Part shown: in pieces, positions 21,497-21,652 of the stretch | Position numbering within the stretch: position 1 is the stretch's first letter | Layout: each line of letters starts with the position of its first letter | NCBI RefSeq assembly: GCF_054482525.1 | Contig: NZ_CM137006.1 | DNA length: 64,000 nt | Strand: one strand, 5' to 3' | Notes under the pieces: generated by a model | The model's input: the letters and a program-made list of their open reading frames with translations, nothing else | Databases searched by the model: none | What the model was told of the DNA's origin: nothing | Position numbers and translations under genes: made by a program

Positions 21497-21583
21497 TTTC
21501 CGGTGACGGTATATAAAACGGTACGGCGAAAATCAGGTTGCAGAAAGTTGTTATCAGTCAATTGGTTATGTGTGTCGTAAATA

Positions 21584-21598
21584 ATTGAGTGGGAATAA
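21584..21598 (+). other. guaA 3'-terminal fragment (ATT GAG TGG GAA TAA = IEWE-stop) marking the prophage/host junction
   Basis: Matches the recalled GuaA C-terminus; followed by the host guaA terminator. Sequence to the left is phage-like. Confidence 0.5.
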
Positions 21599-21626
21599 TT
21601 TGACCCTGCACTATGAATGAACAAAA

Positions 21627-21652
21627 CCCTCTGTTACTACAGAGGGTTTTTT
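21627..21652. terminator. Bidirectional intrinsic terminator between guaA fragment and yfgI
   Basis: CCCTCTGttactaCAGAGGGtttttt. Confidence 0.6.

What the first reader, a model, noticed from the sequence alone, without database searches (positions are those of the whole stretch)
21497..21652. Prophage-host junction preserves the last codons and terminator of guaA
ATT GAG TGG GAA TAA at 21584..21598, followed by the CCCTCTG/CAGAGGG terminator hairpin, matches the recalled guaA 3' terminus. Phage-like sequence lies to the left and K-12-like yfgI to the right. This sets the prophage right boundary and implies the attachment core overlaps the guaA 3' end.
Basis: partly seen in the sequence, partly recalled or inferred. 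Interest (0 to 1): 0.45.

Follow-up and report, generated by a model that had tools for sequence, protein, structure and literature searches.

The report
Known prophage junction at guaA
This is the right-hand junction (attR) of an epsilon15/phiV10-type prophage inserted at the last codons of the E. coli guaA gene; that integration site is already proven by experiment, so the finding is correct but ordinary.

Summary
ATTGAGTGGGAATAA lies at 21584-21598, and a strong terminator hairpin follows it (stem 21627-21633/21640-21646, T-run 21647-21652). The interpretation also holds. Window 1-21600 is the right part of a Uetakevirus (epsilon15/phiV10-like) prophage, and host DNA starts at 21601 (guaA terminator, yfgI, yfgH, yfgG, pdeF). 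Bases 21584-21600 are the 17-bp attachment core ATTGAGTGGGAAT(G/A)ATT, shared by phage attP and the guaA 3' end. Published PCR and Sanger work on phage vB_EcoP_ZX5 established this core (PMC9782041). The other prophage end is outside the window. In two related lysogens (1517k, PCN033) the same core recurs there, directly after an intact guaA and beside the integrase gene. One correction: K-12 guaA ends in TGA, not TAA. TAA is a rare host-lineage allele, also present in the empty site of strain SCU-102. Because PCN033 has TGA at attL and TAA at attR, strand exchange probably lies left of core position 14. A second host allele suggests left of position 12. About 10% of complete E. coli genomes carry this type of junction. 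Verdict: already known, low interest.

The parts
1..21600 (+). Right-hand part of a Uetakevirus (epsilon15/phiV10-like) prophage: major capsid protein through tailspike and lysis cassette. The left part, with integrase and attL, is outside the window.
   Evidence: Searches give DNA similarity to phiv142-3, EC.W1-9, phiV10, epsilon15 and prophages at the same site. Gene order is collinear with the annotated prophage of strain 1517k.
16368..19142 (+). Tailspike, 924 aa, pectate-lyase/GH28-like, in a low-GC module.
   Evidence: phrog_14558 tail spike, E = 0. PF12708 on the identical protein. GC is 0.39-0.44 here.
19684..21002 (+). Lysis genes: holin-like membrane protein 19684-20088, holin 20075-20383, GH19 endolysin 20373-21002.
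   Evidence: phrog_198, phrog_217 and phrog_181.
20999..21496 (+). Rz-like i-spanin (165 aa), the last phage gene. A probable embedded Rz1 lipoprotein ORF (about 21225-21476, lipobox LLTAC) is inferred from the translation.
   Evidence: phrog_312 Rz-like spanin, 2e-52. DUF2514 in relatives. The embedded frame was translated; phiV10 and epsilon15 have an annotated embedded Rz1.
21497..21583 (+). P arm of attR, i.e. the phage attP left arm. It contains the 10-bp motif GTGACGGTAT at 21503-21512, which the epsilon15 record annotates as an integrase-binding site.
   Evidence: The arm aligns with phiV10 and epsilon15 attP up to the core. The motif recurs directly and inverted in the phiV10 P' arm and coincides with the epsilon15 'integrase' protein_bind features.
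21584..21600 (+). att core ATTGAGTGGGAATAATT. It encodes the last four guaA codons (I-E-W-E) plus the stop. Position 14 is A (TAA), the host-lineage allele; attP and K-12 have G (TGA).
   Evidence: The published core is attgagtgggaatgatt (PMC9782041).
21601..21690 (+). B' arm: the original host guaA-yfgI intergenic DNA, including the native guaA rho-independent terminator (stem 21627-21633/21640-21646, T-run 21647-21652).
   Evidence: Nearly identical to K-12 downstream of guaA. 100% identical to PCN033, SCU-102 and 19KM1776.
21691..22230 (-). yfgI (DUF5384), the first host gene to the right of the prophage.

Best explanation
Bases 21497-21652 are the attR junction of an epsilon15/phiV10-type (Uetakevirus) prophage integrated at the 3' end of guaA.

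How it arose (inferred from the family): a phage tyrosine integrase recombined phage attP with host attB within a shared core, ATTGAGTGGGAAT(G/A)ATT, which spans the last four guaA codons and the stop codon.

What integration does (shown in relatives):
- guaA stays intact at the far end (attL). There the phage supplies the stop-codon context and its own near-copy of the guaA terminator.
- At attR the phage P arm (21497-21583) is joined through the core (21584-21600) to the now orphaned native guaA terminator and then yfgI.

The stop codon: the TAA in the window's core is the allele of this host lineage, so at least core positions 14-17 at attR come from the host. Strand exchange therefore probably took place within the left 11-13 bases of the core.

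Shown here: the three-part anatomy; the identity of each arm; the host origin of the A allele; the guaA-core-integrase arrangement in related lysogens.

Inferred: the integrase mechanism (the gene is outside the window) and the position of the crossover.
For: - Phage similarity ends at window 21600/21601 for more than 20 phage records, including phiV10 and epsilon15.
- The alignment of attR, attL, attB and attP shows a clean swap of arms around a 17-bp core.
- Related lysogens have guaA, core and integrase at the other end: 1517k and PCN033. The GuaA protein accession is the same (WP_000138279.1) in lysogen PCN033 and in the non-lysogen SCU-102.
- The attP/attB core attgagtgggaatgatt at the guaA 3' end was proven by PCR and Sanger sequencing for vB_EcoP_ZX5. 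That paper says the same core was proved for phiV10 and epsilon15 (PMC9782041). The phiV10-like TL-2011b also inserts in guaA (PMC3293862).
- The TAA allele is present in the empty attB of SCU-102. PCN033 has attL = TGA and attR = TAA.
- L009 has attR with GAG at the last codon, and that allele exists in empty sites at 100% identity over 100 nt.
- The junction type is found in 558 of 5426 complete E. coli genomes.
Against: - The attL end and the integrase of this particular prophage are outside the window. The source genome was not found in the collections, so the direct repeat was checked only in relatives.
- The crossover position is inferred from four natural lysogens. If the integrase tolerates mismatches inside its overlap region, segregation of a heteroduplex would give the same attL/attR pattern half of the time.
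- Nothing here shows whether this prophage can still excise.
Confidence: 0.95

Rival explanations
1. The junction belongs to a different guaA-targeting element, a GIsul2-like genomic island or ICE, and not to the phage on its left.
For: GIsul2 inserts at GAGTGGGA in the guaA 3' end (PMC9376610). That 8-mer lies inside the core. One genome (L022) has an unrelated island abutting yfgI at ...AATAATG|GAGTGGGAATGATTTGACC.
Against: The 87 bases left of the core in the window are the Uetakevirus attP left arm. They run straight on from the Rz gene exactly as in phiV10 and epsilon15 virion DNA. No island genes are present.
Confidence: 0.01
2. The A at core position 14 (TAA) is a mutation that arose after integration and damaged attR. 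On this reading the prophage is locked in and cannot excise.
For: attP and most attB sites have G. No complete E. coli genome matches the 85-nt junction exactly.
Against: The same A, with a 6-kb host flank 100% identical to the window, is found in the empty attB of SCU-102 and in attR of PCN033, which carries a different phage variant. It is therefore an inherited host allele. It probably lies outside the exchanged segment, because PCN033 attL keeps the phage G.
Confidence: 0.03
3. The match to the guaA end is a chance 15-mer or a truncated guaA pseudogene fragment, with no site-specific recombination involved.
For: Only 15-17 bases match guaA.
Against: Chance expectation is 0.11 per window even at 2 mismatches. 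The match sits exactly where phage homology stops and the guaA downstream sequence begins. The same core is the attP of sequenced virion genomes.
Confidence: 0.01

Closest known systems
attP/attB of Uetakevirus phages vB_EcoP_ZX5, phiV10 and epsilon15 (core attgagtgggaatgatt at the guaA 3' end; PMC9782041)
   Same: Same integration site and same P-arm sequence. Same position of the core, after the Rz gene and about 190 bp upstream of the integrase in attP. Same lysis cassette next to attR. The core matches at 16 of 17 positions.
   Different: Core position 14 is A (stop TAA) instead of G (TGA), from the host lineage. The tailspike (924 aa) and the cargo genes differ from the named phages.
GIsul2 genomic island, inserted at 5'-GAGTGGGA-3' in the guaA 3' end (PMC9376610)
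   Same: Same host target. The 8-bp site is positions 4-11 of the phage core, which is the segment to which natural variants confine the phage crossover here.
   Different: GIsul2 is an unrelated element (resistance island, no virion genes) with different arms. It is not present in the window.
Lambdoid phage 21 and element e14 at the 3' end of icd, and tRNA-gene-targeting phages such as P4 and P22 (from my own knowledge; not tested here)
   Same: The general strategy is the same: integrate in the 3' end of a conserved gene and carry a replacement 3' end so that the gene stays functional.
   Different: The replaced segment here is very short (four codons plus stop), together with a phage-borne copy of the terminator. 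Phage 21 duplicates about 165 bp of icd.

Membership tests
attR of a Uetakevirus (epsilon15/phiV10-like) prophage at guaA | Left arm homologous to the attP left arm of sequenced virion genomes, contiguous with the Rz gene | tested here: met
   the window aligns with phiV10 and epsilon15 from Rz through to the core. Phage homology stops at 21600/21601.
attR of a Uetakevirus (epsilon15/phiV10-like) prophage at guaA | 17-bp common core ATTGAGTGGGAATGATT | tested here: met
   16 of 17 positions match. The one difference (position 14, G to A) is the allele of the host's own attB, as seen in the SCU-102 empty site.
attR of a Uetakevirus (epsilon15/phiV10-like) prophage at guaA | Right arm identical to the host sequence downstream of guaA (terminator, then yfgI) | tested here: met
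   near-identity to K-12, and 100% identity over 6 kb to PCN033, SCU-102 and 19KM1776.
attR of a Uetakevirus (epsilon15/phiV10-like) prophage at guaA | Direct repeat of the core at the other prophage end, after an intact guaA and next to the integrase (attL) | not testable with these tools
   The left end is outside the window, and the source genome was not found. The feature is met in the related lysogens 1517k (L001 9037-9053) and PCN033.
Tyrosine-integrase site-specific recombination (P4-type Int) | Tyrosine recombinase gene adjacent to attP/attL | not testable with these tools
   The gene is not in the window. Relatives have an annotated tyrosine-type integrase 190 bp from the core.
Tyrosine-integrase site-specific recombination (P4-type Int) | Arm-type repeats in the P and P' arms | tested here: inconclusive
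   GTGACGGTAT at 21503-21512 matches the repeated motif in phiV10 attP and the 'integrase' binding features of the epsilon15 record. Those features are predictions by the depositors; binding was not tested.
Rho-independent terminator (guaA terminator) | GC-rich hairpin followed by a U-tract just downstream of the stop codon | tested here: met
   -20.1 kcal/mol, z = -5.2; 12-pair stem, T-run. The call is computational only.

The most novel reading that the evidence does not exclude
Natural host alleles inside the 17-bp core act as markers for the crossover point. At attR the host allele is kept at position 14 (window, PCN033), at position 12 (L009), and at positions 14, 16 and 17 (L014). PCN033 attL keeps the phage allele. 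This confines strand exchange to ATTGAGTGGGA. That segment contains the 8-bp GAGTGGGA site used by the unrelated island GIsul2. Two consequences would follow. Phage and island integrases would cut the same few bases of guaA. And lysogeny in this lineage would silently change the guaA stop codon from TAA to TGA and replace its terminator with a phage-borne copy.
Probability: 0.55. Interest if true: 0.2.

Novelty: already known. Interest (0 to 1): 0.1.

Why it matters
The practical value is for annotation. The finding fixes the right prophage boundary at 21600/21601. It also shows that guaA is not disrupted in this type of lysogen. The site, the core and the phage genus are already published, and about one in ten complete E. 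coli genomes carries the same junction, so a specialist would not be surprised.

The one small addition is that natural core variants narrow the likely crossover to the left 11-13 bases. That region overlaps the GIsul2 target and makes the guaA 3' end a shared landing pad for unrelated elements.

Tried and rejected
- Finding the window's own genome to read its attL. No record in 5426 complete E. coli genomes matches the junction exactly. Exact-protein look-ups with the tailspike, YfgI and the 837-aa protein returned only related mosaics, none 100% identical to the window.
- Rfam scan of 21000-22400 at E <= 1: no RNA family. There is no evidence for a known sRNA or riboswitch in the junction.
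- Reading the TAA as a sign of decay or of a different origin: rejected after finding the same allele in an empty site.
- A GIsul2-type junction: rejected on arm sequence.
- Inverted repeats around the core in phiV10 attP (I1 and I2) as candidate core-type Int sites: their spacing is atypical and nothing could be tested, so I make no claim.

Full report
**Observation.** The window reads ...GTCGTAAATA ATTGAGTGGGAATAA TTTGACCCTGCACTATGAATGAACAAAA CCCTCTG TTACTA CAGAGGG TTTTTT.... ATTGAGTGGGAATAA sits at 21584-21598. It is the only exact copy in the window; 0.11 matches are expected by chance even with two mismatches allowed. The hairpin (stem 21627-21633/21640-21646, T-run 21647-21652) folds at -20.1 kcal/mol, z = -5.2, with none of 200 shuffles folding as well. 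A simple terminator scan also picks it up.

**Surroundings.** The left flank is phage:
- Rz-like spanin 20999-21496 (phrog_312)
- GH19 endolysin (phrog_181)
- two holins
- a 924-aa tailspike (phrog_14558)
- an Ant/Bro-N antirepressor (all)

Upstream of these lie the capsid-to-injection-protein genes, collinear with an annotated prophage in strain 1517k. The DNA matches phiv142-3, EC.W1-9, vB_EcoP_ZX5, phiV10 (87%) and epsilon15 (80%). In nearly all of these records the match ends at query position 2601/2602, which is window 21600/21601. The right flank is the K-12 gene order in reverse orientation: yfgI, yfgH, yfgG, pdeF, ppx, ppk, purN, purM.

**Anatomy of the junction.** I aligned six sequences and then searched all fetched loci for the core:
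- window attR
- attL and attR of lysogen 1517k
- attB of K-12
- attP of phiV10
- attP of epsilon15

The window follows attP on the left up to base 21583. All six share ATTGAGTGGGAAT(G/A)ATT. From 21601 the window follows the K-12 sequence downstream of guaA. Nothing left of 21584 resembles guaA. The 'preserved last codons' are therefore the common core, not a leftover gene fragment.

The P arm in the window contains GTGACGGTAT at 21503-21512. That 10-mer recurs, directly and inverted, in the P' arm of phiV10. It is also what the epsilon15 record annotates as integrase-binding sites. Those annotations are predictions.

**The other end.** The left end of the prophage lies outside the window. I could not find the source genome. 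No complete E. coli genome matches the junction exactly, and exact-protein look-ups returned only related mosaics.
- In 1517k, guaB and an intact guaA (L001 7474-9051) are followed by the core (9037-9053), the integrase (9244-10494), the prophage, the core again (44767-44783) and yfgI.
- PCN033 has a host flank 100% identical to the window over 6 kb. It shows the same arrangement.
- GuaA has the same protein accession in lysogen PCN033 and in non-lysogen SCU-102, so integration leaves the enzyme unchanged.

**Comparison with what is known.** The vB_EcoP_ZX5 paper amplified and Sanger-sequenced attB, attL and attR. It reports attP = attB = attgagtgggaatgatt, 190 bp upstream of the integrase and at the 3' end of guaA. 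It states that the same core had been proved for phiV10 and epsilon15 (PMC9782041). The phiV10-like phage TL-2011b is also reported in guaA (PMC3293862). The finding is thus an instance of a known, experimentally supported integration site.

The junction type is also common. The 85-nt junction is at least 80% covered in 558 of 5426 complete E. coli genomes. A synthetic uninterrupted attB is at least 80% covered in 4551 of them.

**The stop codon.** K-12, phiV10, epsilon15 and most E. coli have GAA TGA. The A is not decay. SCU-102, with an empty site and a flank identical to the window, has guaA ending in TAA.

PCN033 carries a different phage variant in the same host background. It has TGA at attL (phage allele) and TAA at attR (host allele). 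Two further lysogens carry the same 924-aa tailspike phage in other hosts:
- L009 attR has GAG TGA with the flank TTTGATCC. That exact allele occurs in empty sites at 100% identity over 100 nt.
- L014 is in a host only about 90% identical to the window. Its attR reads ATTGAGTGGGAATAAACC, which shares only 13 contiguous bases with attP.

In every case the variant base at attR is the host's. This places strand exchange to the left of position 12, within ATTGAGTGGGA. The caveat is that a mismatch tolerated inside the overlap region would, after replication, give the same attL/attR pattern half of the time. The inference is therefore probable, not proven. It agrees with the 8-bp GAGTGGGA target reported for the unrelated island GIsul2 at the same gene end (PMC9376610).

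**Mechanism.**
- *Shown:* the three-part structure (phage arm, core, host arm), the host origin of the A allele, and the guaA-core-integrase layout in relatives.
- *Inferred from the family:* a P4-type tyrosine integrase, aided by arm-type sites and IHF, recombined attP with attB in the core.

At attL the phage supplies the sequence after the crossover, including its own hairpin AACCCTCTGTTTTTACAGAGGGTTTTT. This is a near-copy of the host terminator AACCCTCTGTTACTACAGAGGGTTTTTT, placed 46 nt after the core where the host's is 23 nt after it. guaA therefore keeps a stop codon and a terminator. At attR the native terminator is left behind the phage lysis operon, where it may now terminate late phage transcripts. 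That last point is inference.

**Rivals.**
- A GIsul2-like junction is excluded by the arm sequence.
- A damaging post-integration mutation is unlikely, given the empty-site allele.
- Chance is excluded.
- No Rfam family matches the region.

**Verdict.** The feature is already known. Interest is low (0.1). The only modest addition is the natural-variant bound on the crossover position.

Noticed in passing
window 21597 (core position 14); L006 3001-3017; L007 attL 39071-39087 and attR 669-685: guaA stops with TAA in this host lineage instead of the usual TGA. In lysogen PCN033 the intact guaA at attL has the phage's TGA and attR keeps TAA, so lysogeny silently swaps the stop codon.
   Followed up: yes
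L014 15217-15234 (GCA_036177505.1); L009 15217-15233 (GCA_021109905.1): The same 924-aa-tailspike phage sits at guaA in a host only about 90% identical to the window. There the core is ATTGAGTGGGAATAAACC, sharing only 13 bases with attP. In another host the core has GAG at the last codon. The integrase therefore tolerates differences in the right third of the published core.
   Followed up: partly
L022 about 10540-20540 (GCA_053736055.1): An unrelated island abuts yfgI at ...AATAATG|GAGTGGGAATGATTTGACC. It encodes a 1130-aa DEAD/ResIII helicase, a Cap4-nuclease/CTD1 protein, MComp1, an SMC/AAA protein and TrbL. The insertion point is the same as for GIsul2, so the guaA 3' end is a hot spot shared by different elements. 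The island looks like a defence or conjugative cargo island.
   Followed up: partly
L003 4495-4518 (phiV10 attP P' arm); L001 9098-9121; window 21625-21648: The phage P' arm carries a hairpin almost identical to the host guaA terminator (the stems are the same; the loop is TTTTTA against TTACTA). This suggests either an ancient capture of a guaA 3' flank or selection to keep guaBA termination after integration.
   Followed up: partly
window 13277-19142; loci L008-L017 and L028-L035: There is strong modular mosaicism. The identical 924-aa tailspike follows two different injection-protein sets (837/600/824 aa or 915/1129/283 aa). The identical 837-aa protein is followed by tailspikes of 586 to 991 aa. 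The tailspike module in the window has low GC (0.39-0.44, against about 0.50 elsewhere).
   Followed up: partly
window 13277-16368: A cargo/regulatory segment lies between the 824-aa protein and the tailspike, on the minus strand. It holds an Ant/Bro-N antirepressor (14903-15598) and a phrog_1651 protein of unknown function (14056-14628). This segment is about 2.1 kb longer than in the 1517k prophage. In PCN033 the same position holds a YafO-type toxin module.
   Followed up: partly
window 21691-22230 (yfgI); phage record JQ011317/NC_019445 (TL-2011b): Host YfgI hits a PHROG family (phrog_1094, 3.5e-104). The TL-2011b phage record matches past attR into yfgI and annotates a DUF5384 protein. 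That prophage-derived record seems to extend into host DNA, which has put a host gene into a phage protein family.
   Followed up: no
L001 44784-44792; L008, L010 and L012 attR; L020, L023, L024 and L027 attB: The first bases after the core vary between E. coli lineages: TTTGACCC, TTTTGAACCC, TTTTGATCCC and TTTTAATCCC. In every attR examined this stretch follows the host lineage, as expected for the B' arm.
   Followed up: partly
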